Positions 8,281 through 62,317 of a DNA stretch of 64,000 nt are shown here, piece after piece. Position 1 is the stretch's first letter; the number at the start of each line of letters is the position of its first letter. Source of the DNA: an uncultured Chloroflexia bacterium (GTDB taxonomy: Bacteria; Chloroflexota; Chloroflexia; QHBQ01; JADMIH01); the NCBI GenBank assembly GCA_963811305.1, contig CAWEQU010000003.1, positions 130,688-194,687 of the forward strand, read 5' to 3'. The notes beneath the pieces were generated by a model. The model worked only from the letters and a program-made list of their open reading frames with translations, was not told the origin of the DNA and searched no databases. The translations under genes and the position numbers were made by a program.

Positions 8281-8754
8281 ATGACGAGTGCCCGGCAGTT
8301 TGAGGAACTTGAAGTCTGGAAGAAGGCACGATTAGTAACAAGAGAGATATATGCTGTAAGCTCGAAGGGCGCATTTTCACGGAACTTCGGCCTTTGTGAT
8401 CAAATTCAGCGGGCAGCTGTATCCGTAATGTCCAATATTGCAGAAGGATTTGAGCGAGAAGGCAACAAAGAGTTTCGACAGTTTCTTGCCCTAGCAAAAG
8501 GCTCCGCAGGTGAAATTCGCTCCCAGCTATATGTCGCACTGGACGCGGGCTTCCTTCAACAAAGTGAGTTTCAGCAGCTATATAACTCTGTAATCGAATT
8601 GAGCCGTCTCATAGCAGGTTTGATGCGTTACCTCAATGCCTCTGATTACAAAGGAAACAAATTTAAGGAAGCTTCAGGTCCAGAGTACCACACAGAAGGT
8701 CCCGACAGTCAGCTAGAGCGTCTTGAACCTCGAACCTCGAACTTTGAACCTTGA
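8281..8754 (+). CDS. Four-helix-bundle protein (TIGR02436; former 23S rRNA intervening-sequence protein family)
   Basis: EELEVWKKARLVTREIYAV...FGLCDQIQRAAVSVMSNIAEGFEREGNKEFRQFLALAKGSAGEIRSQL matches the family consensus. The C-terminal tail is encoded by the TTGAACC array. Confidence 0.7.
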   Translation: MTSARQFEELEVWKKARLVTREIYAVSSKGAFSRNFGLCDQIQRAAVSVMSNIAEGFEREGNKEFRQFLALAKGSAGEIRSQLYVALDAGFLQQSEFQQLYNSVIELSRLIAGLMRYLNASDYKGNKFKEASGPEYHTEGPDSQLERLEPRTSNFEP

Positions 8755-8770
8755 ACTTTGAACTTTGAAC
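8722..8770. repeat. (TTGAACC/TCGAACC)n word array
   Basis: cttgaacctcgaacctcgaactttgaaccttgaactttgaactttgaac. Confidence 0.85.
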
Positions 8771-14263: not shown

Positions 14264-14351
14264 GGACGATAGACGATAGACGATAGACGATAGACGATGG
14301 ACGATGGACGATGGACGATGGACGATGGACGATGGACGATGGACGATAGAC
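14264..14351. repeat. (GACGATA)x4 plus (GGACGAT)x7 word array
   Basis: Direct reading. Confidence 0.9.
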
Positions 14352-14511
14352 CATGAAGTCAATAAAAGGATAGCATATTGTGGGGTGGGTGGCGAGTTCT
14401 AGCCGATAAATGAAAGAGGTGTTGGGCGCGCCCAACACCTCTTTCATATGTAGATACAGAGTGTAGGTACAGGAATTGGACTTTCGCTTACGGGTTTGCA
14501 CACGCCTGCTG

Positions 14512-16704
14512 TTAGCTTTTGTATGTTAGCAGCCTCATCCCGTTGAGGGTTACCAGGAGGGAGACGCCCATGTCGGCCAGGATCGCGCCCCATAAGGGGA
14601 GCATACCGAGGCTTGCGAGAATGAGGGCTATTACTTTCGTCGCCAGCGATACGCCTATATTGGCCTTGATGACGCCTAATGCCTTGCGTGAGAGGGTTAT
14701 CGCGTAGGGGAGGCGCGAGAGGTCGTCGCTCATCAGGGCGACCTCAGCGACTTCCAATGCGGCATCTGTGCCTGCGATGCCCATGGCGATGCCCACGTCG
14801 GCGGTGGCGAGTGCAGGCGCGTCGTTCACGCCGTCGCCTACCATTGCTATGGGGCCATGCTCCGCGGCGATGCGCCGGACTGCTTCTACCTTCTCGGCTG
14901 GGAGAAGCTCAGCGTGGCAGCTATCTACATTGAGCTGGCGTGCTATCGCCTCGGCTGTTCGGCGGTTGTCGCCTGTGAGCATGGCTATATGGCGGATACC
15001 TGATTGGCGTAGCTCCTCAATCGCGGCCTGGGCGTTGGACCTGGACCTGTCGGCGAGGGCTATTATTCCCTGCACGCCGTCAGTAGTGCCCACAAGCACT
15101 GCGGTATTTCCCTCTTCATTGAGAGCGTCGAGCGTGGAAGCTATGCCATTTAGCTCGATGTGATGGTCCCTGAAGAGGCGCGGGCTGCCTACATAGATTG
15201 TCTCGCCACCTATGTCGGCGCGCGCACCCAGGCCGGGCAGGGCGGTGAAGCCAGTTGCCTCTAGCGCAGATGGGTTCTTGTGAAGATCGCGCGCCGCGTG
15301 TACGACGGCTCTCGCCAGGGGGTGCTCTGAGCGGGATTCAGCCGCAGCAGCCATTGTGAGCAACCTATCCTCGTCGCCGTCAGCAGCGCGAACGGCGACT
15401 ACCTGCGGGCGACCCTCGGTGAGAGTGCCGGTCTTGTCGAAGGCGACGACGCGCACCTTGCCCAGCGCCTCCAACGCCTCCCCGCCCTTGATAAGGACGC
15501 CATGCCTGGTAGCGGCACCGATTGCGGAGACGATGCTGACGGGCGTCGAGATGACCAGCGCGCACGGGCACGCTACCACCAGCAGCACCAGCGCGCGGTA
15601 ACCCCACTCCGCGAAGGGCTGTGCTAACAAGAGCGGGGGTATCAGCGCCACGAGGGCCGCTCCCGCTATGACCAGGGGCGTGTAAATCGCTGAGAAGCGG
15701 TCCACGAACTGCTGGGAGGGTGCGCGGCGGGCCTGGGCCTCCTCGACCATGCCGATGATGCGGGCAAGGGTGGTATCACCGGCGGCGCTTGTGCTTCGCA
15801 TGGTAAGCACGCCAGGCCCATTGATGGTCCCGGCGAAGATTTGCGATCCAGGTTCTACGTCAACCGGCACGCTTTCGCCCGTTATGGGGGACTGGTCGAT
15901 TGAAGATATACCCTGCAAGACGATGCCATCGAGGGGAACACGTTCGCCCGGACCAACCAGCACGGTCTCTCCAGGCAGTACTTCCTCTACGGAGACGCGC
16001 ACCTCACGCATGATGGGTAAGCCTGAGCTATTGTCGACGCGGCGCACAAGCGCGGTGTCCGGGGAGAGGTCCATTAGCGCGCGTATCGCGCCGCGCGTCT
16101 TTTGGAGGGTATACGCTTGCAGGGTGCCGCCGAAGGCGAAGAGGAGGACTACCGTAGCGGCTTCGGCCCAGTCGCCAAGCGCAGCCGCGCCTATCGCCGC
16201 CACGGACATGAGCAAGTTCATATCGGCCCGCCCGACGCGCAACGCGAGCAGACCCGCTCTTGCGAAGCCCAGACCGCTTATCACGATTGCCACTGCGTAG
16301 AGGGAATTGACAAACCAGGGAGCGACTCCGAAGAGCGATAGGGCGAAAGCAGCCAGCGCGAATAAGGTTCCAACGCCTGTGGTCAACACCCGGCGTTCTC
16401 GCCGCCAGAAGGGGACTTCTATCAGATGAGCACGCGCCTGGAGTGGAGTAGCTCTATAGCCAGCCTCGTTTACCTTTCGCTCGATGGTTGTTTCGATGCT
16501 GTTGAGCTTGCCTTTTGTGGGAACGACGGATAGCCTTGCAGCGCCGAAGTTCACCCGTGCTGTTTCCACGCCGGGTAGCGCGCCCACCGCCTTCTCTATG
16601 GTGCGCGCGCAGTCCCCGCAGTCCATCCCTTCGATGGTGAACTCAAGGAGGGCATTCGATTTTGGATTTTGGATTTTGGATTTTGGATTTTCTGTGGTAA
16701 TCAT
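14512..16704 (-). CDS. Heavy-metal (Zn/Cd/Pb-type) translocating P1B-ATPase
   Basis: N-terminal HMA GMDCGDC, CPCALVISTP transmembrane motif (ZntA/CadA type), DKTGTLT phosphorylation site and GDGVNDAPAL. The first 16 codons (MITTENPKSKIQNPKS) are encoded by the TTTTGGA array. Confidence 0.85.
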   Translation of the reverse strand: MITTENPKSKIQNPKSNALLEFTIEGMDCGDCARTIEKAVGALPGVETARVNFGAARLSVVPTKGKLNSIETTIERKVNEAGYRATPLQARAHLIEVPFWRRERRVLTTGVGTLFALAAFALSLFGVAPWFVNSLYAVAIVISGLGFARAGLLALRVGRADMNLLMSVAAIGAAALGDWAEAATVVLLFAFGGTLQAYTLQKTRGAIRALMDLSPDTALVRRVDNSSGLPIMREVRVSVEEVLPGETVLVGPGERVPLDGIVLQGISSIDQSPITGESVPVDVEPGSQIFAGTINGPGVLTMRSTSAAGDTTLARIIGMVEEAQARRAPSQQFVDRFSAIYTPLVIAGAALVALIPPLLLAQPFAEWGYRALVLLVVACPCALVISTPVSIVSAIGAATRHGVLIKGGEALEALGKVRVVAFDKTGTLTEGRPQVVAVRAADGDEDRLLTMAAAAESRSEHPLARAVVHAARDLHKNPSALEATGFTALPGLGARADIGGETIYVGSPRLFRDHHIELNGIASTLDALNEEGNTAVLVGTTDGVQGIIALADRSRSNAQAAIEELRQSGIRHIAMLTGDNRRTAEAIARQLNVDSCHAELLPAEKVEAVRRIAAEHGPIAMVGDGVNDAPALATADVGIAMGIAGTDAALEVAEVALMSDDLSRLPYAITLSRKALGVIKANIGVSLATKVIALILASLGMLPLWGAILADMGVSLLVTLNGMRLLTYKS

Positions 16705-19178: not shown

Positions 19179-22100
19179 TTACCTCGTCGCTGTCAAGGTC
19201 AGGCTGTAATAGAGCGGTTGGCCTGGGGTTGGGGCTTTCAGTCTGAGCCAGTTAGTGCCTGCGTGCAATTCGCTGCCGGAGATGATAAGGGAGACCGTGC
19301 TTCCGTTGCTACCATCTGACGAAACCTGCACGGGGCGGTCATTCAGGGTGAGGGTAGGCAAGCCCTTCAACGCCTTTTCGCTCGACTGGGCTGCGTACCG
19401 TGACAGGGACCACATCGCGTCTGAGGTAGCGCCGTAGCCAGCCCAACCGATGCCCTGCCTGGACTCCATCAGAAGCCGGACATAGGTGGGGGCTGTGCTC
19501 GCGTAGGCTGAGGGCTCTCTTACTTGGTAAACAGGCTCCGCCTGGGTGGCAGCCTTGTCCGCTACAATGAGCGCATAGAGGACGGGCGCGGCGGCTTCGG
19601 CCGTAATCTTCATGCGGTCATCGAGCAGCCTGCCAACCAGCACGAGGCCATCCTGGGTGCTCCCCGACTGCATGAGCGCCAGGGCTAACCATGCCTGCCC
19701 TGCATAAGATAGACCTGCTCCTGGGGAGGCGTATGCTATATAGGGGCGAGCCAACTCAGGTTGGAGCACTCCATAAGAAGATAGTGCGTAGAGGCCATAG
19801 GCGCGTTTGTCTAGAGCCTCATCGTCCCTTACTGGGCGGGCTAGCTCCGCGCCGAGATAGGCAAGCCCGCGCTCGATTACAGCTACATCTACATGGGGAT
19901 ACGGGTCCGATTCGCGGTCTCGTTCTGGGGAGGTGAGGCTGTAGTGCCTCAGCGCTAGTAGAATATGTGCCGTGCCGGTAATGCTGCCGAGTGGCGCTTC
20001 CGCAACGGCGTCTTCGGCGCTCCAACTGCCGTCGCTGTTCTGAGCTGAATATATTTGCTCCAGGAGGCTCGCTACCTCTTCAGCTGTTGGAGAGAGGTTA
20101 TCGGGTATCTGCGCTCCTGCCTGAGTATAAGCCCAGGCGACTGAAGCAGAAGAACTCAGGCGCGCCGCCGATGCCATAGCTCTCTCATGCTTGGATGGCG
20201 AATCGCTTGCGATGTTGGTGGCTATGCTTGCGAGCGCGGGCAAGAGCGAGCTAGAGGCGCGCACCTGTAGCTCTACGCCGCCAGCAGATAGACCTGAGGG
20301 GACGAGTACGCCTACAGAACGCTCCCCGGACATCACCCCAGATACATAGGTAGTGTTCGTGCGCGCGCTCTTAGAGGCCACAATAGGGAGGCTCCACGCT
20401 CCCGCGCCATATTGTCCGGGTGCGAAGGAGAACGTTGCCAGGTGAGCGCCGGGCCTGGAGGCTTGCAAGCGCCAATCTACTCTCCGGCTACCACCGGGCG
20501 CGAGAGATAGGGTTTGCGAATCGCTGCTCAAGGTTCTAACTGCATCTTCGCCGTCCATGCGTATGACGACTGATGCAGACTGGTCGGTTGGGTTATGGAC
20601 TACTATGGAGACTGTTTGGGGTTCCATAGATTGAGCCTGAATGGTAGATGGCGTCTGGATCGAGGGGCCGGGCAGGACTCTCAGCACCGACCACGACTGC
20701 ACGTACCCTCCGTCTCCTGTGACCGCTTCCGATAGCATATACCAGAGGCCCGGCGTCCCCGGGGCTTGCAGGGTGGCAGATACGGTGCCGCTGGCTGAGA
20801 GGGTCACGTCTGGCTCCCAGCCACGCGATTCTCCCATGGCATCGCCTATATCGCTCCCGGCAACCCGCCTGAACCAGATGGACGCCACACCTGCTACACC
20901 CTGCCTTTCCCTGTCTGTGAGGCTTAGAAGGGTCACTACAGGTGCATTGGGCAAAGCGGGGAGCGGGTCGGACATTTGTAGCTCGATCCCACCAACTACC
21001 TGAGGCATGAGCGCCATCTCACGCGAGCCTGCTACTCCTGCCCTGAGAAGTCTCAAGCGCCCTCCTGCGTAGTGGCGAGGGAGGGGCACGGTGAGGTCGC
21101 CTGCGCTTGATAGGTCGAGAGACCAGGTTTGTTGCTCACCCGCCGGGGGGTAGGCCGTTAGCAACACGTCGCCATCGACGCCGCTACCGTTCAGCGTCAC
21201 GATACGCACGTTGATGCTGCCATCCTTCGCGGGGCGAGCCACAGCAGCCAGGTTGAGCTCAGGGGAGACCAACTGTCTCATACCCGCTCGCGCCGCCCCA
21301 AACGATGTAAGGTCGAGGTACTGGCTGTCGCTCCCTGCCATGCCATTGAGCGTTGCTGTGGTGGCAAGATAGAGGCTGGGGTCGTTATATGACGCTATCC
21401 ATGACGGTAAGGTCATAACGACTGTGGCCTTGCCCTCGCTATTTGTGGTAGCGGTGACCGGACTTGACACCCAGGAGTCGCCCATTATTCCGAGGGTCAT
21501 AGTGAGGGCAGAGCCTGGTGCAGCGCCTCCATTTGGCCCCAAAATGCTCACAGTACGCGTGATTACGCGGGGGGTCGCGTCCTCCGGCGCTCCGGGCACT
21601 ATATAGACGCCCAGGGTGTCGCTCTTTGGTTGCTTCACGTAGAGTGGGAAGCGACGCTCCTCTCCACCGGCACGGGCCAGCAGCGTGTATTCTCCAGGGC
21701 GTAAATCAGTGGGTAAGTTGAACAGGCCGCTTGCGCCTCCTGCATCGTCAGGTTTCAGGGTGAGAGACCTTAGCACATTTCCTGGAGGGGTGAGCAAAGA
21801 GACTTCTACCTCTCGCTCTGTGAGGGGGGTGTTCGGAATGGCGTCCGTGGTGGGGTGCAACAGTACGCGAAAGTTGACTGTCTGGCCGGGATAATATTCC
21901 GCGCGGTCGGTGCGTAGCGTGGCCGCGAGGGTGTCCCTGGATTGCGTCTTCGGGGCTGTTCCGGGAGACAGCGTCATGGCGGCGAGATGACCCGCACCGT
22001 CGCGGGCGATAGCCAGAGTAGCTTTCTCCATCAATATGTCGGGGGACCAGAGGCCGCGCTCATCCGTAAGCCCCTTCTGGAGGAGTGAGCCTTCAGGCGA

Positions 22101-23765
22101 ATAAAGAGAGATTTCGCTGCCTGCCCATGCGTGGCCGTGCTCGCCAGTGGCCCAGAAGGAGGGTCCACCTCTGTCGTCGATAGCTACCAGGTTATGGTCA
22201 GCAACCGCCAGCAATTGCCAGTCGGTCACAATCCCCTCTTCTGCCAGGGTAGAAGCTACGAGCAGATACGTGCCTGCCGGAAGCTCGTCCGGCACGGGGG
22301 CCGCGCCTTCTGATTTGCCCGCATCTGGCAGGCTCGAACTGAACGTCTGGACCGGCGCTAATCCAGCGGGTAGCCCGCCGGGGAGGGAGACCGGCCAGGG
22401 CCTCTTCTGCGCGCCCAGGGCAGATATGTACTCGGCGGGGAGGTTGTACAGAGAGAACGTCACGATAGGGCCGGAATTCGCATCTTCATCAGGGATGTAA
22501 CCCTGCGCCGGGACTTCACGCGCTTCATCTGCACTTACTTCATACTTTACGCTTCCTGACTGGCTCATGGGAACTACGCTGACACGCCCATCCAACAAGC
22601 GAACCCTCGAAGTTGGGAGCGTGCTGGTGTAGGCGAACTCATGGGGCTGCCCCAGGGTATCGCCACCCTGGGTGCGTGAGGTAGCTGCTGTGCGTAGATA
22701 GACCGTACCTTCGGGCATCGGTACGTCGGGCGACACAATGACTTTGCGCCCATCTGGATCCCAGTAAAGGGTTGCGGGCAAAGCCTCGCTTGACCCGCTC
22801 GTGTGGAGCGACACAGCCGTTTGTTCTCTGTTCATGGGGGCTTCAAAATTGAGGCTGAGTGTGGCTGTGGGGGATAGAGTAGCGCCTGGATTGGTGTCCG
22901 GCATGACGCCATATGGCTCTTTGGTGCGGAAGGACCAGGTGATGGGCTGCCGGAGGGGCGTGCCGGTGAGGGAGCGCGCAGTGCTGCTGAGTAGCAGGGT
23001 GTAAGTGATGCCCCTGAGCAGGCCCGGCTCGTGCGGGGAGAAGAGCAACTCGTTGTCGGCTGCCCACTGGAACGCCCCGGCTGCGGGTGGGTCTATGCCC
23101 CAGGCGTTTTCGACCGAGGCCCGGTCCATAGGCTGGTCGAAGCGGATGCTCATGGGCGCGCCGAGGGGAACGTCGTGAGCATCGCCGGTGGGCGAGAGGC
23201 GCACCGGATTGGGTATGGCTACCGGACCGCCAACCCCGTATTTGCCCGATGATATGGCCGCTAGAGGAGTGGAGTTGACGGCAATGGGGGCTTCTTCGCC
23301 CGGCACGAGGAAGCCAAGCTCTTTGTAACCCCCAATGGGAGGGAGTATGTTCAGCCAGTAGGCCAGGCTGATCATGGCAAAGATGGAGGTGGCTGCCGCA
23401 AATGCGACGCGCTTCGGAGAAGGATCGAACCGCAAGAGCAGACCTGCCGCAAGCAAGCTCCACTTTCTAAATGCGGAGTGCGGAGTGCGGAGTGCGGAAT
23501 TGGGACGGGTTGTGGCTTGGATTGATCTGGTAGGCGCTGGCTCGTCGTGCTTGACGGAGCTTAGGACGGCGTTTCGCACGCGGTCAGAGGGGCGAGGCTC
23601 GGAGGCTGCTTCCTTGAGAAGCACGTCTGTCTGGCGTGCGCGGGCCAGCCATGCGGCGCACTCGTGGCAGCCCTCTACGTGGTCGAGCAACTCGCGGCGC
23701 TGGCGGGGCGTGACCTCGCCATCCATGTAGCGCGATATTAGCTGCCGGTAGCGCGCGCAGGTCAC
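19179..23765 (-). CDS. Giant membrane anti-sigma factor (1528 aa): N-terminal zf-HC2 anti-sigma domain, TM, tandem SbsA-type Ig-like domains, MG-like repeats and a C-terminal alpha-2-macroglobulin TED-like region
   Basis: CARYRQLISRYMDGEV…HVEGCHECAAWL is a zf-HC2 anti-sigma motif. GTG start overlaps the sigma gene stop. The C-terminal LEQIYSAQNSDGSWS…TAHILLAL resembles an A2M thiol-ester domain, but no CxEQ thioester motif is evident. The GCGGAGT x3 array is in-frame in the cytoplasmic linker. Confidence 0.55.
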   Translation of the reverse strand: MTCARYRQLISRYMDGEVTPRQRRELLDHVEGCHECAAWLARARQTDVLLKEAASEPRPSDRVRNAVLSSVKHDEPAPTRSIQATTRPNSALRTPHSAFRKWSLLAAGLLLRFDPSPKRVAFAAATSIFAMISLAYWLNILPPIGGYKELGFLVPGEEAPIAVNSTPLAAISSGKYGVGGPVAIPNPVRLSPTGDAHDVPLGAPMSIRFDQPMDRASVENAWGIDPPAAGAFQWAADNELLFSPHEPGLLRGITYTLLLSSTARSLTGTPLRQPITWSFRTKEPYGVMPDTNPGATLSPTATLSLNFEAPMNREQTAVSLHTSGSSEALPATLYWDPDGRKVIVSPDVPMPEGTVYLRTAATSRTQGGDTLGQPHEFAYTSTLPTSRVRLLDGRVSVVPMSQSGSVKYEVSADEAREVPAQGYIPDEDANSGPIVTFSLYNLPAEYISALGAQKRPWPVSLPGGLPAGLAPVQTFSSSLPDAGKSEGAAPVPDELPAGTYLLVASTLAEEGIVTDWQLLAVADHNLVAIDDRGGPSFWATGEHGHAWAGSEISLYSPEGSLLQKGLTDERGLWSPDILMEKATLAIARDGAGHLAAMTLSPGTAPKTQSRDTLAATLRTDRAEYYPGQTVNFRVLLHPTTDAIPNTPLTEREVEVSLLTPPGNVLRSLTLKPDDAGGASGLFNLPTDLRPGEYTLLARAGGEERRFPLYVKQPKSDTLGVYIVPGAPEDATPRVITRTVSILGPNGGAAPGSALTMTLGIMGDSWVSSPVTATTNSEGKATVVMTLPSWIASYNDPSLYLATTATLNGMAGSDSQYLDLTSFGAARAGMRQLVSPELNLAAVARPAKDGSINVRIVTLNGSGVDGDVLLTAYPPAGEQQTWSLDLSSAGDLTVPLPRHYAGGRLRLLRAGVAGSREMALMPQVVGGIELQMSDPLPALPNAPVVTLLSLTDRERQGVAGVASIWFRRVAGSDIGDAMGESRGWEPDVTLSASGTVSATLQAPGTPGLWYMLSEAVTGDGGYVQSWSVLRVLPGPSIQTPSTIQAQSMEPQTVSIVVHNPTDQSASVVIRMDGEDAVRTLSSDSQTLSLAPGGSRRVDWRLQASRPGAHLATFSFAPGQYGAGAWSLPIVASKSARTNTTYVSGVMSGERSVGVLVPSGLSAGGVELQVRASSSLLPALASIATNIASDSPSKHERAMASAARLSSSASVAWAYTQAGAQIPDNLSPTAEEVASLLEQIYSAQNSDGSWSAEDAVAEAPLGSITGTAHILLALRHYSLTSPERDRESDPYPHVDVAVIERGLAYLGAELARPVRDDEALDKRAYGLYALSSYGVLQPELARPYIAYASPGAGLSYAGQAWLALALMQSGSTQDGLVLVGRLLDDRMKITAEAAAPVLYALIVADKAATQAEPVYQVREPSAYASTAPTYVRLLMESRQGIGWAGYGATSDAMWSLSRYAAQSSEKALKGLPTLTLNDRPVQVSSDGSNGSTVSLIISGSELHAGTNWLRLKAPTPGQPLYYSLTLTATR

Positions 23766-26493: not shown

Positions 26494-28319
26494 GTGAAAA
26501 TCCAAAATCCAAAATCTAAAATCCAAAATCGGAAGAGCTGGTGGTATATCTGGCGGCTAGCCCGCTTCCGCTTTCCTCTTTACCTGCTGAGCGGCCTGCT
26601 GGCAAGCTCGCTATTTTACTTCTTTCCACTGATCCCCGGTCTCTTTGTGCGTGAGATATTCGACAACCTCACCGGCAATGCCCCCGCCGAGAGCAGCCTC
26701 TGGACCTACGCCGCACTGATCGCCGCCGTAGGCCCCGTCCAGATGCTATCCAATCTAGGTGCTAATGTGGTCGAGGTGACCATGCAACTGACCACGGCGG
26801 CGCTGCTGCGCCGCAATATGTTCGAGCGTATACTACAGCGTCCAGGAGCGAAGGCGCTGCCCGCGTCGACGGGAGAGGCGATAAGTCGCTTCCGCAATGA
26901 CGTTGAGGAGATTTACGGCTTCCTGACCTGGACGCTCGATCCCCTGGGCCAGGCGATAGTCATGATCCTCGCTCTCAGCATACTGATCAGCATCAACCCA
27001 CTCATCACGGTGGCGGTTTTCGTGCCGCTCGTGGCGGTGCTGGTCATTGTAAACACTGCCAGTAAGCGCATCCAGAAGTATCGCAAAGCCAACCAGGAAG
27101 CGATTGGTGAGGTGACAAGTCTACTGGGCGAGGTGTATGGGGCAGTACTGGCGATAAAGGTGGCGGGCGCTGAGGAGAACGTAGCAGCGCATTTTCGGGG
27201 AGTGAACGAGGCGCGTCGAAAAGCCGCGCTCAACGACGTGCTGCTCACAGAGCTGCTAGGCTCGATCTCCTTCAACGTCGCCAACCTGGGCACCGGGTTG
27301 ATGCTACTGGTCGCGGCGCAGGCCATGCACAGCGGCAGCTTTACCGTGGGCGATTTCGCACTCTTCGTATCGTACCTGGGCTGGCTGACCGTCGTGATCA
27401 GCATGTTCGGGAACTATCTGACCAAGTATCGCCAGGTGCAGATATCGTTGCAAAGGGCTATCGAGCTGTTACAGGGCGCGCCTTCCGAGATGCTTGTCAG
27501 ATATAACCCCGTCCACATGCGCGGCCCTCTGCCTGAGCCTACCCACATCCAAAGGACCGAGGCCGACACCCTGAAACGGCTCGAAGCCACCGGCCTGGTA
27601 TTTCATTACCCAGGCTCCTCTAATGGGATTGAGGCTGCCAGCTTTAGCCTTGAGCGAGGATCATTTACCGTCATCACGGGGCGCATCGGTGCGGGCAAGA
27701 CAACCTTGCTGCGAGTGCTGCTGGGGTTGTTGCCGCGAGAGGGAGGTGCGGTCCGGTGGAACGGTGAGGAGGTGGACGACCCGGCGAGCTTCTTCGTGCC
27801 GCCACGCTGTGCCTACACGCCGCAGACGCCGCGCCTCTTCAGCGACTACGTTGCGAGAGAACATTCTGCTCGGGCTACCCCGGTGAGGAACCGGCCATGA
27901 CCACTGCCCTGCACGCCGCCGTGCTCGAACGGGACATCGGCGAGATGGAGCAGGGGCTTGACACCCTGGTTGGGCCACGGGGGGTCAAGCTGTCGGGTGG
28001 GCAGATGCAGCGCACCGCGGCGGCGCGCATGTTCGTGCGCGAGGCCGAATTATTGGTAGTGGACGATCTTTCGAGCGCGCTCGACGTGGAGACCGAAAGC
28101 GCTCTCTGGGCACGCCTGGCCCGGCAGCGAAACGTCACCACCCTCGCCGTCTCCAACCGGCGCTCGGCTTTGCGCCGTGCCGATCAGATCATTGTCCTCA
28201 AAGAGGGGCAGGTTGAGGACAGGGGCACGCTGCCCGAGCTGCTGGAGAGATGCGAGGAGATGCATCGCCTATGGCACGGCCAGCTTGAGAGACGCGAGGT
28301 GGAGGAAGCACGCGCATAA
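26494..28319 (+). CDS. ABC exporter, fused permease/ATPase (half-transporter 2); two closely spaced apparent frameshifts at 27845-27890
   Basis: Walker A GRIGAGKTT. After …PRLFSD the expected TLRENILLGLP and GEEPAMTTALH… segments are in the other two frames (C4 run), then LSGGQMQRTAAARMF. The N-terminus MKIQNPKSKIQNRKS is encoded by the TCCAAAA array. Confidence 0.7.
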
Positions 28320-31172: not shown

Positions 31173-31236
31173 TGTGGACGATAGACGATAGACGATAGAC
31201 GACTAGATTTTACCGCAGAGACGCAGAGTTCGCAGA
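31173..31236. repeat. (GACGATA)n array plus inverted partial copy of the composite element (CCGCAGAGACGCAGAGTTCGCAGAG)
   Basis: Reverse complement of the ctctgcgaactctgcgtctctgcgg core seen at 7420-7450 and 57705-57730. Confidence 0.75.
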
Positions 31237-31297
31237 GATTTATTGAGGATTCACGCATCACGTTTCACGTCACGTATGACGAATGGAGGAAGGGGAG

Positions 31298-47742: not shown

Positions 47743-48713
47743 TGAACGACGCATTGCCACTCCTTTGTTACTTTGAAGGTAAGGTTATGCCTCTCAGCGA
47801 GGCTAAAGTGGGCATACTTACCCACGCCCTGAGCTACGGAACCGGATGTTTCGAGGGCATACGAGCCTATTACAATAAAGAGCAGGACCAGCTCTACGGC
47901 TTTCGCGTGCGCGAGCATTACGAGCGCTTGCAGCAATCAAGCCGCGTCCTGCTTATGGACCTCCCCCATTCGCCGGAGCAACTCGTAAGTATCACTAACG
48001 ACCTGCTGAGACGCAGTGGCATCCGCCAGGACGCATATATGCGTCCTATGGTTTACAAGGCTGACGAAGTCATAGGAGTCAGGCTGCACAATCTCCGCAC
48101 CGAGATGTATGTCACGGTACAGCCCTTTGGCAATTACATAGACATAGACCGCGCTCTCGAAGTGGGCGTATCTTCCTGGAAGCGTATTGACGACAATATG
48201 ATACCGGCCCGCGCCAAGATAACGGGTACATACGTCAACTCAGCCTTCGCCAAGAGCGAAGCCAACATGAATGGCTTCGATGAGGCGATTATGCTAGACC
48301 ACGCTGGGCACGTTTCGGAAGGCTCCGCCGAGAACTTATTCATGATACGTAACGGTGTAGCCTACACACCGCCCGTCACCGAGAACATACTTGAGGGGAT
48401 CACCCGCCTCACGATTATGACCTTGCTGAGCGAAGAGCTGCATATCCCGCTTGTCGAGCGCGTCATAGACCGTACGGAGCTATATGTCTGCGACGAGCTA
48501 ATACTGTGCGGCACGGGCGCGCAGATAGCCCCCGTAGGCTCGGTAGACCACCGCCCCGTCGGCAATGGCGGCGTGGGTAAGATAGGCCATGCGCTCCAGG
48601 AGCTTTATTTTGATGTGGTACGTGGCAATGTACCAAAGTACAAAGAGTGGTGCAGCCCCGTTTATGCAGAAGCTCGCCGCCCCGCCGACGTGCGAATGGC
48701 AGTAGCCTCATAA
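47743..48713 (+). CDS. ilvE: Branched-chain amino acid aminotransferase (class IV PLP enzyme)
   Basis: Full-length BCAT similarity incl. EGSAENLF and catalytic Lys region. Confidence 0.8.
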
Positions 48714-48770
48714 TTTTGGATTTTGGATTTTCGATTTCGATAGTTGATCCAAAATCCAAAATCCAAAATC
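48714..48770. repeat. Inverted TTTTGGA/TCCAAAA word arrays (hairpin) between ilvE and the bPH gene
   Basis: ttttggattttggattttcgatttcgatagttgatccaaaatccaaaatccaaaatc. Confidence 0.85.
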
Positions 48771-52237: not shown

Positions 52238-53701
52238 TTAGCGTATTGTGATGGCCTTGCCCCAAAGGTCGTACTCGGTGCTCTCGGTGACGCGCACTTT
52301 GACCACATCGCCTTGTTTTAGCTCAGTCTCTTTGGGCGGCTTGATGAAGACCATGCCGTCCACTTCGGGGGCCTGGCGGTAGGTGCGGCCCACGTAGATG
52401 GGGACCTGGCGGCCCTTGCCGTCCTCCAGGGTGCCCGTGCCGTCTACCAGCGCCTCAACCGTTTGCCCGACCATGCGGCGGTTCTTCTGGGAGCTGATCT
52501 TCTGCTGGCGAAGCATGGCCTCGCGGTAGCGCTTCATCTTCACCTTCTCAGGCACTTGTCCTGGCATGTCGCCTGCGGGCGTGCCCTTCTCAGGCGAGTA
52601 AGTGAACATCCCGACGTTATCGAAGCGCACTTCTTCTATGAATTCGAGTAGCGTCTTGAACTCTGCGTCGGTCTCACCAGGGAAGCCGACTATGAAGGTG
52701 GTACGTAGAGCGATGTCGGGCATGGCCTCGCGGAAGCTCTCTATGAGGCGGCGGTATCGCTCCACGTCGTTGGGGCGCTTCATGCGCTTCAGCACGTCGG
52801 GGTGCCCATGCTGAAGGGGCATGTCTATGTACTTGGCTACCTGTGGGTGGCGGGCCATCGCCTCTATGAGGCCGGGCGTCACCTGGGTCGGGTATGCGTA
52901 CATGAGACGCACCCACATTACGCCTGGGGCGGCCTCGGCTATGGCGTCAAGCAGGCGAGCCAGCCCGTCGCGCATCCCCAGGTCGATGCCGTAGTAGGTG
53001 CTATCCTGGGCTATCAGCACTACCTCTTTGACGCCCTGCTCGGCCAGGTCAGCGACTTCGTGGGCTATTTCATCGATGGGGCGCGAGACGTGCTTGCCAC
53101 GTATGGCGGGGATGATGCAGAAGGCGCACTTGTGGTCGCACCCCTCGGAGATTTTGACGTACGCGCTAGGCCCGTTGGCTTTGCGGCGGAATCGCTTCAA
53201 CTGAGAGGTAATCTGCACAGGCGCGATGGGCGCCCAGGCGATTCCTGTGATGCCAGTGCTGGGGACGGACGATGGACGATGGACGATGGACGATGGAGAA
53301 GTGAGAACTGAGACAGAAGTGCCGTTTGATTCCTGACCCCTGACCCCTGATCCCTGATCCCTTAACTTCTCAACGTACTGCGCTATCTCCGGCCATGCAC
53401 GGGTGGAGATTACGCCGTCCACACCGGGCACCCAGCCTGGCACGTCGGGAGCGTAACGCTCGCTCATGCAGCCTGCGGAGATGAGTATCTGGCCGTCGCG
53501 CTTCTTCTCGGCCAGGGCGCGCAGCTCCCCTACCAACTCATCTACGGCGGATTGGAGGAAGGCGCAAGTATTGACTATGAGCACGTCGGAGTCGGCGGGG
53601 TTGGCGCTCTGCTCGTATCCCGCCTCGGTGAGCATCGCGCCCATGCCCTCGCTATCAACGTTATTCTTTTCGCAACCCAGGGTGGTGATGTTGAATTTCA
53701 T
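52238..53701 (-). CDS. rimO: Ribosomal protein S12 methylthiotransferase RimO, carrying a ~45-aa in-frame linker insertion made of word-array DNA
   Basis: MTTase N-domain, radical-SAM CDHKCAFCIIP, TRAM C-terminus. Between the first two domains lies …DQGSGVRGQESNGTSVSVLTSPSSIVHRPSSVPST…, encoded by (GGGATCA/GGGGTCA)n plus (GGACGAT)n at 53262-53364. Confidence 0.8.
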   Translation of the reverse strand: MKFNITTLGCEKNNVDSEGMGAMLTEAGYEQSANPADSDVLIVNTCAFLQSAVDELVGELRALAEKKRDGQILISAGCMSERYAPDVPGWVPGVDGVISTRAWPEIAQYVEKLRDQGSGVRGQESNGTSVSVLTSPSSIVHRPSSVPSTGITGIAWAPIAPVQITSQLKRFRRKANGPSAYVKISEGCDHKCAFCIIPAIRGKHVSRPIDEIAHEVADLAEQGVKEVVLIAQDSTYYGIDLGMRDGLARLLDAIAEAAPGVMWVRLMYAYPTQVTPGLIEAMARHPQVAKYIDMPLQHGHPDVLKRMKRPNDVERYRRLIESFREAMPDIALRTTFIVGFPGETDAEFKTLLEFIEEVRFDNVGMFTYSPEKGTPAGDMPGQVPEKVKMKRYREAMLRQQKISSQKNRRMVGQTVEALVDGTGTLEDGKGRQVPIYVGRTYRQAPEVDGMVFIKPPKETELKQGDVVKVRVTESTEYDLWGKAITIR

Positions 53702-53705: not shown

Positions 53706-53780
53706 TAAGAAGTTAGAAGTTAGAGATTAGAAGCTAGAAGCTGATGATCAGATTTCTAACTTCTAACTTCTGATTTCTAC
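53706..53780. repeat. Inverted AGAAGTT/AACTTCT word arrays (hairpin) between yajQ and rimO
   Basis: agaagttagaagttagagattagaagctagaagctgatgatcagatttctaacttctaacttctgatttctac. Confidence 0.85.
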
Positions 53781-54295: not shown

Positions 54296-54375
54296 TGAAG
54301 GAAAAGGGAAAAAGGATAAATTACAACCATAAATGTATTTGCATTTATCCTTTATCCCTTTTCCTTTTTCCTTTA
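54296..54375. repeat. Inverted AAAGGGA/AAAAGGA word arrays (hairpin)
   Basis: gaaggaaaagggaaaaaggataaat…atttatcctttatcccttttcctttttcctt. Confidence 0.8.
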
Positions 54376-57617: not shown

Positions 57618-57773
57618 GGACGATAGACGATAGACGATAGACGATAGACGATAGACGATAGACGATAGACGATAGACGATAGAGGATGGAATGCATACTT
57701 CCCTAAAATAATCTCTGCGTCTCTGCGGTGAATTTACTTTCTGTCGTCCATCGTCCGTCGTCTATGATATAAT
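57618..57773. repeat. (GACGATA)x10 array plus conserved ~80-bp composite element (copy 2)
   Basis: gcatacttccctaaaataatctctgcgtctctgcggtgaatttactttctgtcgtccatcgtccgtcgtc matches 7400-7476. Confidence 0.85.
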
Positions 57774-57801: not shown

Positions 57802-58053
57802 ATGCCTGTAGAGCCGATGGATATACGCATCGGGGATGTGTATACCTTGAGGAAACCGCACCCTTGCGGGAGCTATGATTGGCGCGTGGTGCGCGTGGGA
57901 GGCGACATCGGTATGCGCTGTGTCAAGTGCGACCACAAAGTGCTCCTCCCGCGCTCGGAGTTCGAGCGTCGGAGTCAAGAAATTGGTGGAGCGTACAGAG
58001 ACCGAAAATGCGATATAATTCATATTACGTATTGCGTGATGCGTGATGCGTGA
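57802..58053 (+). CDS. DUF951-family small protein
   Basis: IRIGDVYTLRKPHPCGSYDWRVVRVGGDIGMRCVKCDHKVLLPRSEFERR fits the DUF951 Zn-ribbon-like pattern. The tail is encoded by the (TGCGTGA)n array. Confidence 0.55.
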   Translation: MPVEPMDIRIGDVYTLRKPHPCGSYDWRVVRVGGDIGMRCVKCDHKVLLPRSEFERRSQEIGGAYRDRKCDIIHITYCVMRDA

Positions 58054-60208: not shown

Positions 60209-62317
60209 ATGTCAACACCCAGCACTCAGTGGCAGCCCCTGCCTGCTCCTAGCGACCCACGCAATCCCTCCACAGATTGGTGGCTCGCTATATTGGAGCG
60301 TGCCCTCATCTCGCGCGCGATGGACGACCTCGAGGTCACGAAGGAGTACCGACCCAACCCTGACAAGCCGCACGAAGGGAAGCTCAAGTTTCAGTTCGGG
60401 GCGAAGGGGCACGAAATCCCACAGCTTATAGCCGCTGCGCTCTTGAGTCACCCCCACGACGGTGCGACCGTCTATTATCGCTCGCGCCCTCTGATGCTGG
60501 GCGTGGGGCTGACTCCGTTCGAGGCATTCGCCAGTAATATGCACAAGCTTGAGGGCGTGTCGGGTGGGCGTGACATAGGCGTGGTCTTCAATCACAAGCA
60601 GCCAGGCGGCGTGACAGTCCTCCCGGCATCGGGCGACGTTGGCGCGCAGTTCACGCCCGCCATAGGGTGGGCGCAGGCCGTGCAGTACCGCGCCACCGAG
60701 CTTGGGCAGGAGGAGTACGCGGGCGCCGTCGCGCTGGCTCACGCAGGCGACGGCGCTACCTCCACCAACGGCTTCTGGAGCGCCATCAACATAGCAGCCC
60801 CTCGCCGTCTCCCCTACGTGATGCTGATTGAAGACAATCGCTATGCCTTATCGGTGCCCTGGCGCTATCAGAGCGGCTCCCCATCCATCGTAGACAACCT
60901 CCGCAACTTCCAGGACCTCAATATGCAGTCCGTCGAGGGCGGCGACATCCTGGCTCTTTATCAGGCCCTGTACAGCGCCATCATGGGAGCGAGGCAGGGT
61001 GCTGGCGCGCAGTTAGTCCACGTCAAAGTGCCCCGCCTAACAGGCCACAACTGGCAGGACCCCGCCGCCTACAAGAGCGCCGAGGAGAAAGAGGAAGACG
61101 CTCGACGCGATCCCCTCACACGCCTCATCGCTCACCTGCAAGAGGAGCATGGCGTCTCCGCCGCGCAGATAGACGCACTGCGCGAGCAAGCAACCGAGTT
61201 CGCAAGGGAGCAGGCAGAAGCAGCCTGGGAGCGCGGCTCCGATCCGCCCGGCGACGACGCTACCACTCACCTATTCTCCCCTCAGCAATCCAAACTCCAA
61301 AATCCAAAATCCGAAATCGTCACGGAGGGTCCCAGGCTGACTATGCAGCAGGCCATCAAGCAGACCCTTGAGGACGAGATGGCCCACGACAATACCATCC
61401 TGGTCTTCGGGGAGGACGTGGGGGCGTTCGGCGGCGTGCATAGGGTGACGGATGGGTTGCAGGCACGCTTCGGCGAGGCGCGCTGCTTCGACACGAGCCT
61501 GAACGAGGAGGGCATTGTAGGTCGCTCTGTGGGCATGGCGCTCAACGGACTTAGACCCGTGCCCGAAATCCAGTTCCGTAAGTATGCAGACCCCGCGCAT
61601 GAGCAGATCACCGACGCGGGGAGCATGAGGTGGCGCACGCATGGGCGCTTCGGCGGCCCAATCGTGCTGCGCATCCCCGTAGGCTACCAGCTTATGGGAG
61701 GGGACCCCTGGCACGCGGTGTGTGGGGAGGCTGTGTTCGCCCACCTCCCCGGCTGGCAGATAGCCTACCCGTCGAACGCGGCGGACGCAGTGGGCCTACT
61801 CCGAACCGCGCTACGGGGAGATGATCCTGTGGCCTTCCTGGAGCATCGCCTCCTCTATCGCTACCGCGAGGCCAACCGCCCTTATCCCGGCGCAGATTAC
61901 GTAGTGCCCTTTGGTCAAGCCGCTCAGGTCCGCGAGGGGGACGATGCGCTCATAGTCACCTGGGGCGATACCGTTTACCGCTCGCTGGAGGCGGCGAACG
62001 TCGTGGCGCAAAGCACGGGCGCGCAGACCCGCATCCTCGACCTGAGGACGGTGGTCCCCTGGGACCATGATAAGGTTATGCAGGCGGTGAAGGATATAGG
62101 CCGCGTGCTGGTCGTGCATGAGGATACGATAACGTGCGGCTTCGGTGCGGAGATAGCTGCCCAGGTCGCTGATGAAGCCTTCGTCTATCTCGACGCGCCG
62201 GTGAAGCGTGTGGCGTGCGCCGACGTCCCCTCCCCTACCCACGACAACCTCTTCGAGGCCGTCATGCCCACCGCCCGCAAGATACAGGCGGCGCTGGAGG
62301 AGTTGGTTAAGTTCTAA
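60209..62317 (+). CDS. Fused 2-oxoacid dehydrogenase E1 component (TPP-dependent alpha subunit plus beta subunit in one 702-aa chain); linker encoded by a word array
   Basis: N-terminal E1-alpha TPP fold (…GDGATSTNGFWSAINIA…), C-terminal E1-beta (…ILVFGEDVGAFGGVHRVTDGLQARFG…RCFDTSLNEEGIVG…). The linker …QQSKLQNPKSEIV… is encoded by caaactccaaaatccaaaatccgaaatc (61288-61319). Confidence 0.75.
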   Translation: MSTPSTQWQPLPAPSDPRNPSTDWWLAILERALISRAMDDLEVTKEYRPNPDKPHEGKLKFQFGAKGHEIPQLIAAALLSHPHDGATVYYRSRPLMLGVGLTPFEAFASNMHKLEGVSGGRDIGVVFNHKQPGGVTVLPASGDVGAQFTPAIGWAQAVQYRATELGQEEYAGAVALAHAGDGATSTNGFWSAINIAAPRRLPYVMLIEDNRYALSVPWRYQSGSPSIVDNLRNFQDLNMQSVEGGDILALYQALYSAIMGARQGAGAQLVHVKVPRLTGHNWQDPAAYKSAEEKEEDARRDPLTRLIAHLQEEHGVSAAQIDALREQATEFAREQAEAAWERGSDPPGDDATTHLFSPQQSKLQNPKSEIVTEGPRLTMQQAIKQTLEDEMAHDNTILVFGEDVGAFGGVHRVTDGLQARFGEARCFDTSLNEEGIVGRSVGMALNGLRPVPEIQFRKYADPAHEQITDAGSMRWRTHGRFGGPIVLRIPVGYQLMGGDPWHAVCGEAVFAHLPGWQIAYPSNAADAVGLLRTALRGDDPVAFLEHRLLYRYREANRPYPGADYVVPFGQAAQVREGDDALIVTWGDTVYRSLEAANVVAQSTGAQTRILDLRTVVPWDHDKVMQAVKDIGRVLVVHEDTITCGFGAEIAAQVADEAFVYLDAPVKRVACADVPSPTHDNLFEAVMPTARKIQAALEELVKF

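What the first reader, a model, noticed from the sequence alone, without database searches (positions are those of the whole stretch)
53262..53364. Word-array DNA inserted in-frame inside conserved genes: rimO linker, E1 alpha/beta fusion linker, anti-sigma linker, and many N/C-terminal tails
In rimO, ~100 bp of (GGGATCA/GGGGTCA)n plus (GGACGAT)n lies in-frame between the MTTase N-domain and the radical-SAM domain, adding ~45 aa (…SPSSIVHRPSS…). Otherwise colinear RimO proteins lack such a segment. The same phenomenon recurs elsewhere.
- The only linker joining the E1-alpha and E1-beta halves of the fused dehydrogenase (61288-61319, QNPKSEI) is a TCCAAAA array, suggesting the fusion arose by a repeat insertion removing the stop and start.
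- GCGGAGT x3 sits in the cytoplasmic linker of the anti-sigma protein (23472-23499).
- Arrays encode the first 16 aa of the Zn/Cd ATPase (16648-16704) and the N-terminus of ABC exporter 2 (26497-26530).
- Arrays also encode the C-terminal tails of the GT1, four-helix-bundle, wzz2 and DUF951 proteins.
The repeats therefore remodel protein termini and create inter-domain linkers while preserving reading frame. That is a notable mode of protein evolution.
Basis: partly seen in the sequence, partly recalled or inferred. Interest (0 to 1): 0.8.

Follow-up and report, generated by a model that had tools for sequence, protein, structure and literature searches.

The report
Seven-base repeat arrays translated inside genes

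Summary
rimO (52238-53701, minus strand) carries two 7-nt arrays (53327-53362, 53267-53297) in frame. They lie between the UPF0004 and radical-SAM domains, in the only segment AlphaFold cannot order (residues 120-162). The other listed cases are also real: the E1 linker, the anti-sigma linker, the ATPase and ABC N-termini, and the GT1, IVP, Wzz2 and DUF951 C-tails.

The E1 alpha/beta fusion is ancient: it is fused at about 50% identity in Chlorobiota and Bacteroidota. The array therefore only overwrote an existing linker of about 12 residues. The long RimO linker is clade-wide, and arrays turn over inside it. The DUF951 tail is a 1-nt frameshift read-through.

The decisive comparison is with a relative about 91% identical in DNA. 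All 7 coding arrays kept their length, while 19 of 20 non-coding arrays changed (p = 9e-6). The one unchanged "non-coding" array is itself in the GT1 coding tail.

Arrays are period-7 specific, mostly intergenic, and enriched at stop codons. They use a word repertoire shared across the clade.

Best reading: hypermutable STRR-like heptamer repeats are filtered by selection and survive only as stop-free, mostly hydrophilic, frame-preserving inserts in disordered sites. Close precedents exist (TAACTGA repeats in Beggiatoaceae, cyanobacterial STRR). Interest is moderate.

The parts
52238..53701 (-). rimO CDS (487 aa): UPF0004, long linker, radical-SAM, TRAM
   Evidence: ORF list; Pfam; 4jc0 alignment; 100% match P0001 and many RimO homologues
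53207..53365 (-). RimO inter-domain linker (aa ~113-165). Its N-terminal half is hypervariable among relatives; its C-terminal half (AWAPIAPVQ..) is clade-conserved
   Evidence: Protein alignment; AlphaFold pLDDT below 50 for residues 120-162 while the rest of the model averages about 90 or more
53327..53362 (-). rimO array 1: sense (GGGATCA)2(GGGGTCA)2GGAATCA, encoding RDQGSGVRGQES. This older array family is shared with L001, L161, L164 and many clade RimO proteins
   Evidence: TRF; DNA comparison
53267..53297 (-). rimO array 2: sense (CATCGTC)x4.4, the reverse complement of the genome's commonest word GGACGAT, encoding SSIVHRPSSV. At this spot L001 has CGCACTC and L161 has AAATTCA
   Evidence: TRF; word census
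60209..62317 (+). Fused 2-oxoacid dehydrogenase E1 alpha/beta (702 aa)
   Evidence: Pfam E1_dh, Transket_pyr, Transketolase_C; fused homologues in distant phyla
61287..61318 (+). E1 linker array (AATCCAA/AAATCCA)x4.6, encoding KLQNPKSEI at aa 360-370
   Evidence: TRF. Orthologous site carries ATTTCAA in L161, GTTCAAA in L162, and the same word at the same length in L164
23472..23498 (-). Array (TGCGGAG)x3.9 in the anti-sigma-like protein 19179-23765(-), encoding NSALRTPHSAF at aa 90-98, between zf-HC2 and the hydrophobic segment
   Evidence: same length in relative L163
16658..16691 (-). Array (GATTTTG)x4.9, sense AAAATCC, encoding ENPKSKIQNPKS at aa 5-16 of the HMA-P-type ATPase 14512-16704(-)
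   Evidence: orthologue N-termini are hypervariable; same length in L163
26497..26530 (+). Array (AAAATCC)x4.9, encoding KIQNPKSKIQN at aa 2-13 of ABC exporter 2 (26494-27900, frameshifted near 27875)
   Evidence: same length in L163
7354..7393 (+). Arrays (GACGGAC)x2.3 and (TGAAACG)x3.4 forming the last ~8 residues and the stop codon of GT1 glycosyltransferase 6282-7379
8722..8770 (+). Array (CTTGAAC)x7 forming the last ~11 residues and the stop of the 23S_rRNA_IVP four-helix-bundle gene 8281-8754. It is inverted relative to the GTTCAAG array at 8229-8264
   Evidence: the gene is absent from relative L163
9440..9472 (+). Array (AAGGACG)x4.7 encoding the C-terminal KDEGRRTKDDG of Wzz2 (8765-9475)
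   Evidence: same length in L163
58033..58058 (+). Array (TGCGTGA)x3.7 supplying the last 6 residues and the stop of DUF951 (57802-58053). It is reached only because of a 1-nt insertion at 57973

Best explanation
The window comes from an uncultured Chloroflexia lineage whose genome carries an STRR-like population of tandem heptanucleotide arrays. The arrays use a limited word repertoire shared across the clade, including GGACGAT, GACGATA, TGAAACG, AAAATCC, ACTCCGC, AAGGACG and GGGGTCA.

The arrays are hypermutable in length. They are mainly intergenic and are concentrated at the 3' ends of genes, often as inverted pairs that form hairpins.

Occasionally an array arises in, spreads into or is copied into a coding sequence. 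A 7-nt array read through three units encodes the same heptapeptide in every frame. It is therefore tolerated only under four conditions.
- (b) The net length change keeps the downstream frame.
- (c) The site is structurally unconstrained: a disordered inter-domain linker, an N- or C-terminal tail, or a loop.
- (d) The encoded peptide is compatible with disorder, that is, mostly hydrophilic.

Once fixed in a CDS, the array is frozen in length by purifying selection, because most slippage steps (+/-7 nt) would shift the frame. Over longer divergence it decays or is overwritten by another word.

What is shown and what is inferred:
- Shown: the arrays are in frame and lie in a predicted disordered RimO segment; the word at a given site differs between relatives; coding arrays are length-stable while non-coding arrays are length-variable; the E1 fusion pre-dates its array.
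- Inferred: the arrays are selectively neutral or nearly neutral passengers; their molecular origin is replication slippage plus copying or recombination between arrays.
For: - Period-7 specificity: 19 exact arrays at period 7 against none at other periods or in simulations.
- Clade trait: 0.2-1.6 arrays per kb in Chloroflexia relatives against about 0-0.1 per kb in outgroups. The same words recur across genomes.
- Depletion from coding DNA: about 81% of the window is coding by my own codon-usage ORF calls, but only 30% of array bases lie in CDS. 12 of 39 arrays lie within 10 nt of a stop codon, against 3.9 +/- 1.8 expected (0 of 500 simulations reach 12).
- Scarcity inside genes: in 405 kb of clade DNA only about 23 of 195 arrays are ORF-internal. 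Twelve of these are in the RimO linker, spread over 7 genomes.
- The RimO linker is the only low-confidence segment of a good model (mean pLDDT 88; residues 120-162 below 50).
- Turnover at fixed sites. RimO array 2 is CATCGTC in the window, CGCACTC in L001 and AAATTCA in L161. The E1 linker is AAATCCA, ATTTCAA or GTTCAAA. ATPase N-tails vary from 3 to about 40 residues and contain array-type peptides.
- Comparison with the ~91%-identical relative Ga0467065_0000018: 0 of 7 coding arrays changed length, against 19 of 20 non-coding arrays (Fisher p = 9e-6). The one unchanged 'non-coding' array is itself in the GT1 coding tail. Coding arrays differ only by point substitutions.
- Sense-strand heptapeptides are hydrophilic: mean Kyte-Doolittle -1.17 against +0.03 for the antisense reading (Wilcoxon p = 0.013, 17 words).
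- The rimO array segment has no RNA structure beyond shuffles (z = +1.8), unlike the intergenic inverted pairs (z = -3.9 to -6.7).
- The same logic was described for TAACTGA repeats in Beggiatoaceae (PMC4679880) and for SSR enrichment at protein termini (PMC3315296).
Against: - There are no expression or proteomic data, so translation through the arrays is inferred from conservation of frame and length.
- RimO array 1 (the GGGRTCA family, peptide DQGSGxRDQESG) is recognisable in many lineages at 75-91% identity. That is longer persistence than a purely neutral, hypermutable tract might predict, and it could indicate function or repeated re-seeding.
- The strong word bias (4 words make up a third of 158 arrays) is not explained by simple local slippage. 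The mechanism that spreads words between loci is unknown.
- The window sequence contains several 1-nt indels that break genes which are intact in relatives. Its base-level accuracy is therefore imperfect. However, every coding array is reproduced at the same length in an independent JGI assembly.
- The hydropathy test uses few, non-independent words.
Confidence: 0.75

Rival explanations
1. The coding arrays are contingency (phase-variation) loci. Slippage by one 7-nt unit would switch rimO, the metal ATPase, the ABC exporter or the anti-sigma factor OFF and ON by frameshift.
For: The unit length is not a multiple of 3. Two arrays sit within the first 16 codons (ATPase, ABC2), which is the classic position for translational phase variation (PMC3315296). 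Non-coding arrays of the same kind change length in 19 of 20 cases between ~91%-identical genomes, so the tracts are mutable.
Against: None of the 7 coding arrays differs in length between the window and the relative. All are in the ON frame in both genomes. In L001, L161 and L162 the genes are also intact. The tracts are short (4-5 units). rimO and E1 are housekeeping-type genes of a soil organism.
Confidence: 0.07
2. The array-encoded segments, or the DNA/RNA arrays themselves, are selected for a function. Candidates are tunable flexible-linker length between the RimO domains, or a G-quadruplex in the mRNA (rimO array 1 has four G3-4 tracts on the sense strand) that modulates translation.
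For: RimO array 1 (the GGGRTCA family) persists at the same position in many lineages. It matches the G3+N4 x4 pattern shown to form G4 structures for GGGNATC repeats in Xanthomonas and Nostoc (PMC4692102). The RimO, E1 and ATPase sites are colonised repeatedly.
Against: Sub-lineages at similar distance have no array and a plain linker (L002-L005, L007, L016). The words at array position 2 and in the E1 linker are unrelated between near relatives. The encoded region is predicted to be disordered and is hypervariable in length, about 20-50 residues. L161 has only three G3 tracts. Repeated colonisation is expected from permissiveness alone.
Confidence: 0.13
3. Artefact: the arrays are outside the true coding sequences through wrong start or stop choice or longest-ORF bias, or they are assembly errors.
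For: the ORF listing reports longest ORFs. The window has 1-nt indels that break several genes. The ORF 13757-14362 'N-terminus' (array at aa 3-33) is probably untranslated: there is an ATG at codon 38, and the array differs in length by 63 nt in the relative. The DUF951 tail depends on a 1-nt insertion.
Against: The rimO, E1 and anti-sigma arrays have conserved domains in the same frame on both sides. The ATPase and ABC2 have no alternative start. C-terminal arrays lie upstream of the first stop. The same arrays with the same length occur in an independent JGI assembly, and homologous arrays occur in L001 and L161.
Confidence: 0.03
4. One reading: the E1 alpha and beta genes were fused by insertion of the TCCAAAA array, which removed a stop and a start codon.
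For: The array is the only sequence between the last E1_dh and first Transket_pyr residues detected by Pfam.
Against: Fused proteins of 660-790 aa with all three domains occur at 48-54% identity in Chlorobiota, Bacteroidota and Kapabacteria. In about 50 Chloroflexia relatives they carry a conserved-length non-repeat linker...HLFAPARPVPETPPVTEGPRLTMQQ. Only the window and a few near relatives have array peptides there, and they use different words.
Confidence: 0.01

Closest known systems
TAACTGA heptanucleotide direct repeats of marine Beggiatoaceae, also found in some cyanobacteria and Bacteroidetes (MacGregor 2015, PMC4679880)
   Same: Tandem 7-nt units dispersed genome-wide and mostly intergenic. 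They often overlap stop codons. When inside ORFs they lie at the very beginning or end, or between modules, and they encode a repeating heptapeptide in the stop-free orientation. The same argument about stops in all three frames applies.
   Different: That system has one dominant word, placed mostly upstream of start codons. Here there are dozens of words (61 canonical words in 158 arrays), enriched at stop codons and in inverted hairpin pairs. The host is a different phylum. Here there is comparative evidence for word turnover and for length freezing in CDS.
Cyanobacterial STRR (short tandemly repeated repetitive) heptanucleotide sequences, including STRR inside the RNase P RNA gene (Vioque 1997; title seen in the reference lists; paper not held)
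   Same: Families of tandem heptamers shared between related filamentous bacteria. They are dispersed and mostly intergenic, and are occasionally embedded in a tolerant part of a functional gene.
   Different: Different words and a different phylum. The embedded example I could document is an RNA gene, not protein linkers. I could not read the primary papers.
GGGNATC G-quadruplex-forming heptamer repeats of Xanthomonas and Nostoc (Rehm 2015, PMC4692102)
   Same: 7-nt G-rich units with a preference for about 4 copies. [quoted passage not shown]
   Different: Most words here are not G-rich. Here one such array is on the sense strand inside a conserved gene.
General SSR behaviour in prokaryotic coding regions (Lin and Kussell 2012, PMC3315296)
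   Same: [quoted passage not shown] C-terminal frameshifts create novel tails.
   Different: That study deals mainly with short-unit SSRs. Here there are long 7-nt-unit arrays with a genome-wide shared vocabulary.
Phase-variable contingency loci of host-adapted pathogens, for example heptanucleotide tracts in Haemophilus (PMC8262952, listed)
   Same: Tandem 7-nt tracts whose slippage can change expression. Tracts near the 5' ends of genes.
   Different: No ON/OFF length variation was seen in the coding tracts here. The host is a free-living soil lineage and the genes are housekeeping-type.

Membership tests
Long simple-sequence repeats with 7-nt unit (STRR-like heptanucleotide arrays) | Head-to-tail tandem copies of a 7-nt unit, far above chance and specific to that period | tested here: met
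   19 exact arrays of at least 3 copies at period 7; none at periods 4-6 or 8-12; none in Markov simulations. TRF table.
Long simple-sequence repeats with 7-nt unit (STRR-like heptanucleotide arrays) | Dispersed at many loci, with a limited set of words shared between loci and between related genomes | tested here: met
   158 arrays fall into 61 canonical words; the top 4 words account for 52 arrays and occur in up to 7 genomes. Density is 0.2-1.6 per kb in the clade against about 0-0.1 in outgroups.
Long simple-sequence repeats with 7-nt unit (STRR-like heptanucleotide arrays) | Predominantly intergenic and under-represented in coding sequence | tested here: met
   30% of array bases lie in CDS, against about 81% coding by my own ORF calls. 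About 23 of 195 arrays are ORF-internal in 405 kb.
Cyanobacterial STRR sensu stricto | Occurrence in heterocyst-forming cyanobacteria with the canonical STRR words | tested here: not met
   All close relatives are Chloroflexia MAGs. The words found (GGACGAT, GACGATA, TGAAACG, AAAATCC...) are listed. That they differ from the canonical STRR words rests on my recollection of those words, because the primary STRR papers were not held.
Phase-variable contingency locus | Repeat tract inside or just upstream of a CDS, with a unit not divisible by 3 | tested here: met
   ATPase aa 5-16, ABC2 aa 2-13, rimO, E1 and anti-sigma.
Phase-variable contingency locus | Tract length differs between close relatives or strains, producing ON and OFF frames | tested here: not met
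   0 of 7 coding arrays differ in length from the ~91%-identical relative; all are in frame. This is a single pairwise comparison. No population data are available.
RimO (ribosomal protein S12 methylthiotransferase) | UPF0004 N-domain, radical-SAM core with CxxxCxxC, and C-terminal TRAM domain, colinear with a solved RimO | tested here: met
   Pfam. 4jc0 E = 6e-92 over both halves. The invariant C188/C192/C195 and C10/C46/C78 residues appear in alignment A1.
Fused E1 alpha/beta 2-oxoacid dehydrogenase | E1_dh, Transket_pyr and Transketolase_C in one polypeptide, with the fusion shared with distant lineages | tested here: met
   Fused homologues at 48-54% identity in other phyla.

The most novel reading that the evidence does not exclude
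The clade possesses an active, word-specific mechanism that copies or seeds particular heptamer arrays at new loci. This would be templated insertion, gene conversion between arrays, or a dedicated enzyme, rather than mere local slippage. Such a mechanism would continually overwrite permissive protein linkers and termini, making it a built-in generator of disordered-segment diversity in otherwise conserved enzymes.

Three observations fit this reading. The genome's commonest word (GGACGAT) appears in the rimO linker of the window lineage only. The same word AAAATCC occurs in three unrelated proteins. Unrelated words occupy the same linker position in near relatives.
Probability: 0.2. Interest if true: 0.7.

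Novelty: new member of a known kind. Interest (0 to 1): 0.38.

Why it matters
The case gives a clean natural experiment. In one genome pair, essentially every non-coding heptamer array has changed length while every coding one is frozen. This shows that the tracts are hypermutable and that the in-gene copies are truly translated and constrained.

It documents how dispersed non-triplet repeats can become protein sequence. They do so only in disordered linkers and tails, only in stop-free and mostly hydrophilic orientations, and with word replacement over time. It also identifies the RimO inter-domain linker as a recurrent landing site across a Chloroflexia clade.

There are practical consequences as well. 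These arrays will mislead gene callers about starts and stops, inflate apparent protein novelty, and mark sites that tolerate insertions.

The finding does not reveal a new mechanism of gene fusion. The general phenomenon has precedents in Beggiatoaceae and cyanobacteria.

Tried and rejected
- Fusion by array for E1: rejected, because the fusion is ancient.
- Frame compensation between the two rimO arrays. MAFFT gave 34/9/1-nt indels against L001. A protein-guided reading shows that all events can be placed as multiples of 3. This cannot be claimed either way.
- Length steps of 7 or 21 nt in coding arrays: not seen. Linker differences are 6, 18 and 24 nt.
- RNA hairpin in the rimO array segment: rejected (z = +1.8).
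- Known RNA families in the window: none at gathering threshold.
- Exact look-up of the window's own RimO contig: not on record.
- Metagenome scan for strain-level rimO variants: only 6 relatives at 73-75% identity, none closer.
- Literature search for heptanucleotide repeats in Chloroflexi: no dedicated paper. Chloroflexus aurantiacus is listed as the most satellite-rich bacterium in one survey (PMC6749651).
- Vioque 1997 could not be read.
- A rule that arrays downstream of stops carry stops in all frames: not general. For example, TTCAAGG and AGGAATC are stop-free (inspection).
- ORF 13757-14362 'N-terminal' array: judged probably untranslated.
Full report
**Observation**

The window is about 57% G+C DNA. 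Its closest relatives are uncultured Chloroflexia MAGs. Tandem Repeats Finder reports 73 rows, about 40 distinct arrays, and almost all have a 7-nt unit.

The periodicity is exclusive. There are 19 exact arrays of at least three copies at period 7, none at periods 4-6 or 8-12, and none in 50 third-order Markov simulations.

At the coordinates given, two arrays lie inside the 487-aa rimO ORF at 52238-53701 on the minus strand.
- On the sense strand, (GGGATCA)2(GGGGTCA)2GGAATCA occupies 53327-53362.
- On the sense strand, (CATCGTC)x4.4 occupies 53267-53297.

Pfam places UPF0004 at residues 2-96, Radical_SAM at 183-355 and TRAM at 411-484. The solved T. maritima RimO (4jc0) aligns to residues 1-112 and 166-484, leaving about 40 extra linker residues. 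The arrays encode residues ~114-145.

**The other listed sites**

All of them are real.
- The E1 array at 61287-61318 is aa 360-370, between E1_dh and Transket_pyr.
- The anti-sigma array at 23472-23498 is aa 90-98, after zf-HC2.
- The ATPase array at 16658-16691 is aa 5-16. The only in-frame start upstream of the HMA beta-1 strand is M1.
- The ABC2 array at 26497-26530 directly follows the only available GTG start.
- The GT1, 23S_rRNA_IVP, Wzz2 and DUF951 genes end inside or just after arrays. In three of them the stop codon is supplied by the array itself.

**What relatives show for RimO**

Every clade homologue from 60 to 91% identity is 455-498 aa long and has a long linker. Thermomicrobiales and other phyla have RimO proteins of 434-446 aa.

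The linker has two parts. One is a clade-conserved half, (I/V)AWAPIAPVQxTSQLKRFRRK. The other is a hypervariable half, 20-50 residues long. Its sequences carry heptapeptide-repeat signatures such as DQGSGARDQESG, DEGRRTKGEGR, IRNPQSAIRN and NISTNISTNI.

At the DNA level the first array family (GGGRTCA) is shared by the window, L001, L161 and L164. The second position differs:
- CATCGTC in the window and L164;
- CGCACTC in L001 (91% aa identity);
- AAATTCA in L161.

L006 has three other words. One sub-lineage (L002-L005, L007, L016) has no array.

AlphaFold with a 60-sequence alignment gives a confident model (mean pLDDT 88, pTM 0.85). Its only disordered segment is residues 120-162. The arrays therefore occupy a pre-existing, unconstrained, disordered linker.

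In 405 kb of clade DNA, about 23 of 195 arrays are internal to ORFs. Twelve of these are in this one linker, spread over seven genomes. The linker is thus a recurrent landing site.

**E1 fusion**

Fused E1 alpha/beta proteins with all three domains occur at 48-54% identity in Chlorobiota, Bacteroidota and Kapabacteria. They carry equal or longer linkers. About 50 Chloroflexia relatives have a length-conserved non-repeat linker.

Array-type peptides appear only in the window and a few near relatives. The words differ at the same spot: AAATCCA, ATTTCAA and GTTCAAA. Each is followed by a relic of an AATCCGC array.

**N-termini and the DUF951 tail**

ATPase orthologues begin anywhere from MRFVIEGMDC to extensions of about 40 residues. 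The extensions contain ENPKSKIQNPKS, GARSQESGVRS or SAIRNPKSK. The N-tail is therefore lineage-specific and array-derived.

The DUF951 tail is different in kind. Relatives have proteins of 66-74 aa. The window's 83-aa version follows a 1-nt insertion at 57973.

**The decisive comparison**

A JGI contig, Ga0467065_0000018, is about 91% identical in DNA. It covers window 4645-26891 (locus L163) and 42270-62315 (locus L164).

Whole-region alignment shows that none of the 7 coding arrays differs in length. These are rimO x2, E1, anti-sigma, the ATPase N-terminus, the ABC2 N-terminus and the Wzz2 C-terminus. In contrast, 19 of 20 non-coding arrays do differ (Fisher p = 9e-6). The single unchanged 'non-coding' array is itself in the GT1 coding tail. 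The coding arrays keep the same word and show only point substitutions.

This comparison leads to three conclusions.
- The tracts are highly length-mutable.
- The coding copies are under purifying selection on length, so they are translated.
- There is no ON/OFF difference of the kind expected for phase variation.

**Genome-wide behaviour**

By my own codon-usage ORF calls, about 81% of the window is coding, but only 30% of array bases lie in CDS. Twelve of 39 arrays lie within 10 nt of a stop codon, against 3.9 +/- 1.8 expected.

Heptamer density is a clade trait, and a small vocabulary of words is shared across genomes.

A 7-nt array encodes the same heptapeptide in all three frames, so only stop-free orientations can be coding. 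The sense peptides are hydrophilic: mean Kyte-Doolittle -1.17, against +0.03 for the antisense reading (p = 0.013, small sample).

The rimO array segment has no RNA structure beyond shuffles. Intergenic inverted array pairs fold into strong hairpins.

**Interpretation**

The best explanation (confidence about 0.75) has three parts.
- A hypermutable, STRR-like heptamer repeat population is filtered by selection.
- In-gene copies survive only where the word is stop-free, the net change is in frame, and the site is disordered.
- They are then frozen in length and eventually overwritten.

The rivals are less likely:
- phase variation (0.07);
- selected linker or G-quadruplex function (0.13);
- annotation or assembly artefact (0.03);
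- fusion by array (0.01).

**Comparison with what is known**

The pattern closely parallels the TAACTGA heptanucleotide repeats of Beggiatoaceae. Those are mostly intergenic, overlap stops, and lie in ORFs only at termini or between modules in the stop-free orientation (PMC4679880).

It also parallels GGGNATC repeats near stop codons in Xanthomonas and Nostoc (PMC4692102), cyanobacterial STRRs, and the general enrichment of SSRs at protein termini (PMC3315296). A survey lists Chloroflexus aurantiacus as the most satellite-rich bacterium sampled (PMC6749651).

I found no paper on these arrays in this Chloroflexia lineage. I therefore rate the finding as a new member of a known kind, with moderate interest (0.38).

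The most novel reading not excluded is a word-specific copying mechanism that seeds arrays into permissive protein sites (probability about 0.2).

**Caveats**

- The gene calls are my own, from a codon-usage model.
- The window carries several 1-nt indels that break genes which are intact in relatives. Single-base frame arguments for this assembly alone are therefore unsafe.
- All coding arrays were nevertheless confirmed in an independent assembly.

Noticed in passing
window 48713-48770; 53708-53779; 54298-54375; 10232-10313: Intergenic arrays often come as inverted pairs of the same word, for example ATTTTGG...CCAAAAT. These fold into long hairpins just after stop codons (RNA z-scores -6.1, -3.9 and -6.7; 0 of 200 shuffles fold as well). 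At 48713-48770 both arms are one unit (7 nt) longer in L001 and in L164. This is symmetric copy-number change that preserves the hairpin. The elements are terminator-like or otherwise structural.
   Followed up: partly
window 8229-8770 vs L163 18048-18141: The 23S_rRNA_IVP (four-helix-bundle) gene at 8281-8754 is absent from the ~91%-identical relative. In the window it lies in the loop between the inverted arrays GTTCAAG (8229-8264) and CTTGAAC (8722-8770). At the same intergenic spot the relative has a plain inverted pair of a different word, AGAAGTT/AACTTCT.
   Followed up: partly
window 7393-7474 and 57688-57765; L001 4563-4720: A conserved module of about 80 nt recurs next to GACGATA/GGACGAT arrays at non-syntenic loci and in L001. 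Its sequence is ...CATACTTCC.TAAAATAA.CTCTGCG.TCTCTGCGGTGAATTTACTTTCTGTCGTCC.TCGTC. A reversed CGCAGAGA version lies at 31214-31238. It may be a promoter-bearing or mobile module. There is no Rfam hit.
   Followed up: no
window 18843, ~27875, 56970, 57973, 58289, 58723, 58908: Single-base indels relative to L163 and L164 break genes that are intact in relatives. The affected genes are EPSP synthase (354 vs 430 aa), ABC exporter 2 (468+140 vs 607 aa), a methyltransferase (197+109 vs ~301-307 aa), an MFS transporter (fragments vs 510-513 aa) and DUF951. This suggests assembly indel errors or recent pseudogenisation.
   Followed up: partly
window 14264-14355: This is the longest array, (GGACGAT/GACGATA)x13. 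It is 63 nt (9 units, or 21 codons) longer than in the relative. It lies in the longest-ORF 'N-terminus' of 13757-14362, but an ATG at codon 38 is the likelier start.
   Followed up: partly
L001 18050-19705 (-): A 551-aa multi-pass membrane protein in the 91% relative carries three arrays in predicted loops. They encode EGRKQKAESSRQ, FVLRPSSFVL and AECGVRSAEF. It uses the opposite orientations of words that are hydrophilic elsewhere.
   Followed up: no
window and clade loci: The same array-encoded peptides recur in unrelated proteins and genomes. IQNPKSK occurs in the ATPase, ABC2, E1 and L023 RimO. IRNPQSAIRN occurs in L006 RimO and in the E1 proteins P0125, P0140 and P0152. NSAL(R/H)TPHSA occurs in the anti-sigma protein and L001 RimO.
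   Followed up: partly
window 53327-53362 (sense strand of rimO): rimO array 1 reads GGGATCAGGGATCAGGGGTCAGGGGTCAGG, and (GGGGTCA)4 in L164. This is a canonical four-tract G-quadruplex motif on the mRNA strand, similar to the GGGNATC repeats shown to form G4 structures.
   Followed up: no
window 589-789: A repeat with periods of 36 and 77 nt (2.6-3.3 copies) near the start of the window is unrelated to the heptamer arrays.
   Followed up: no
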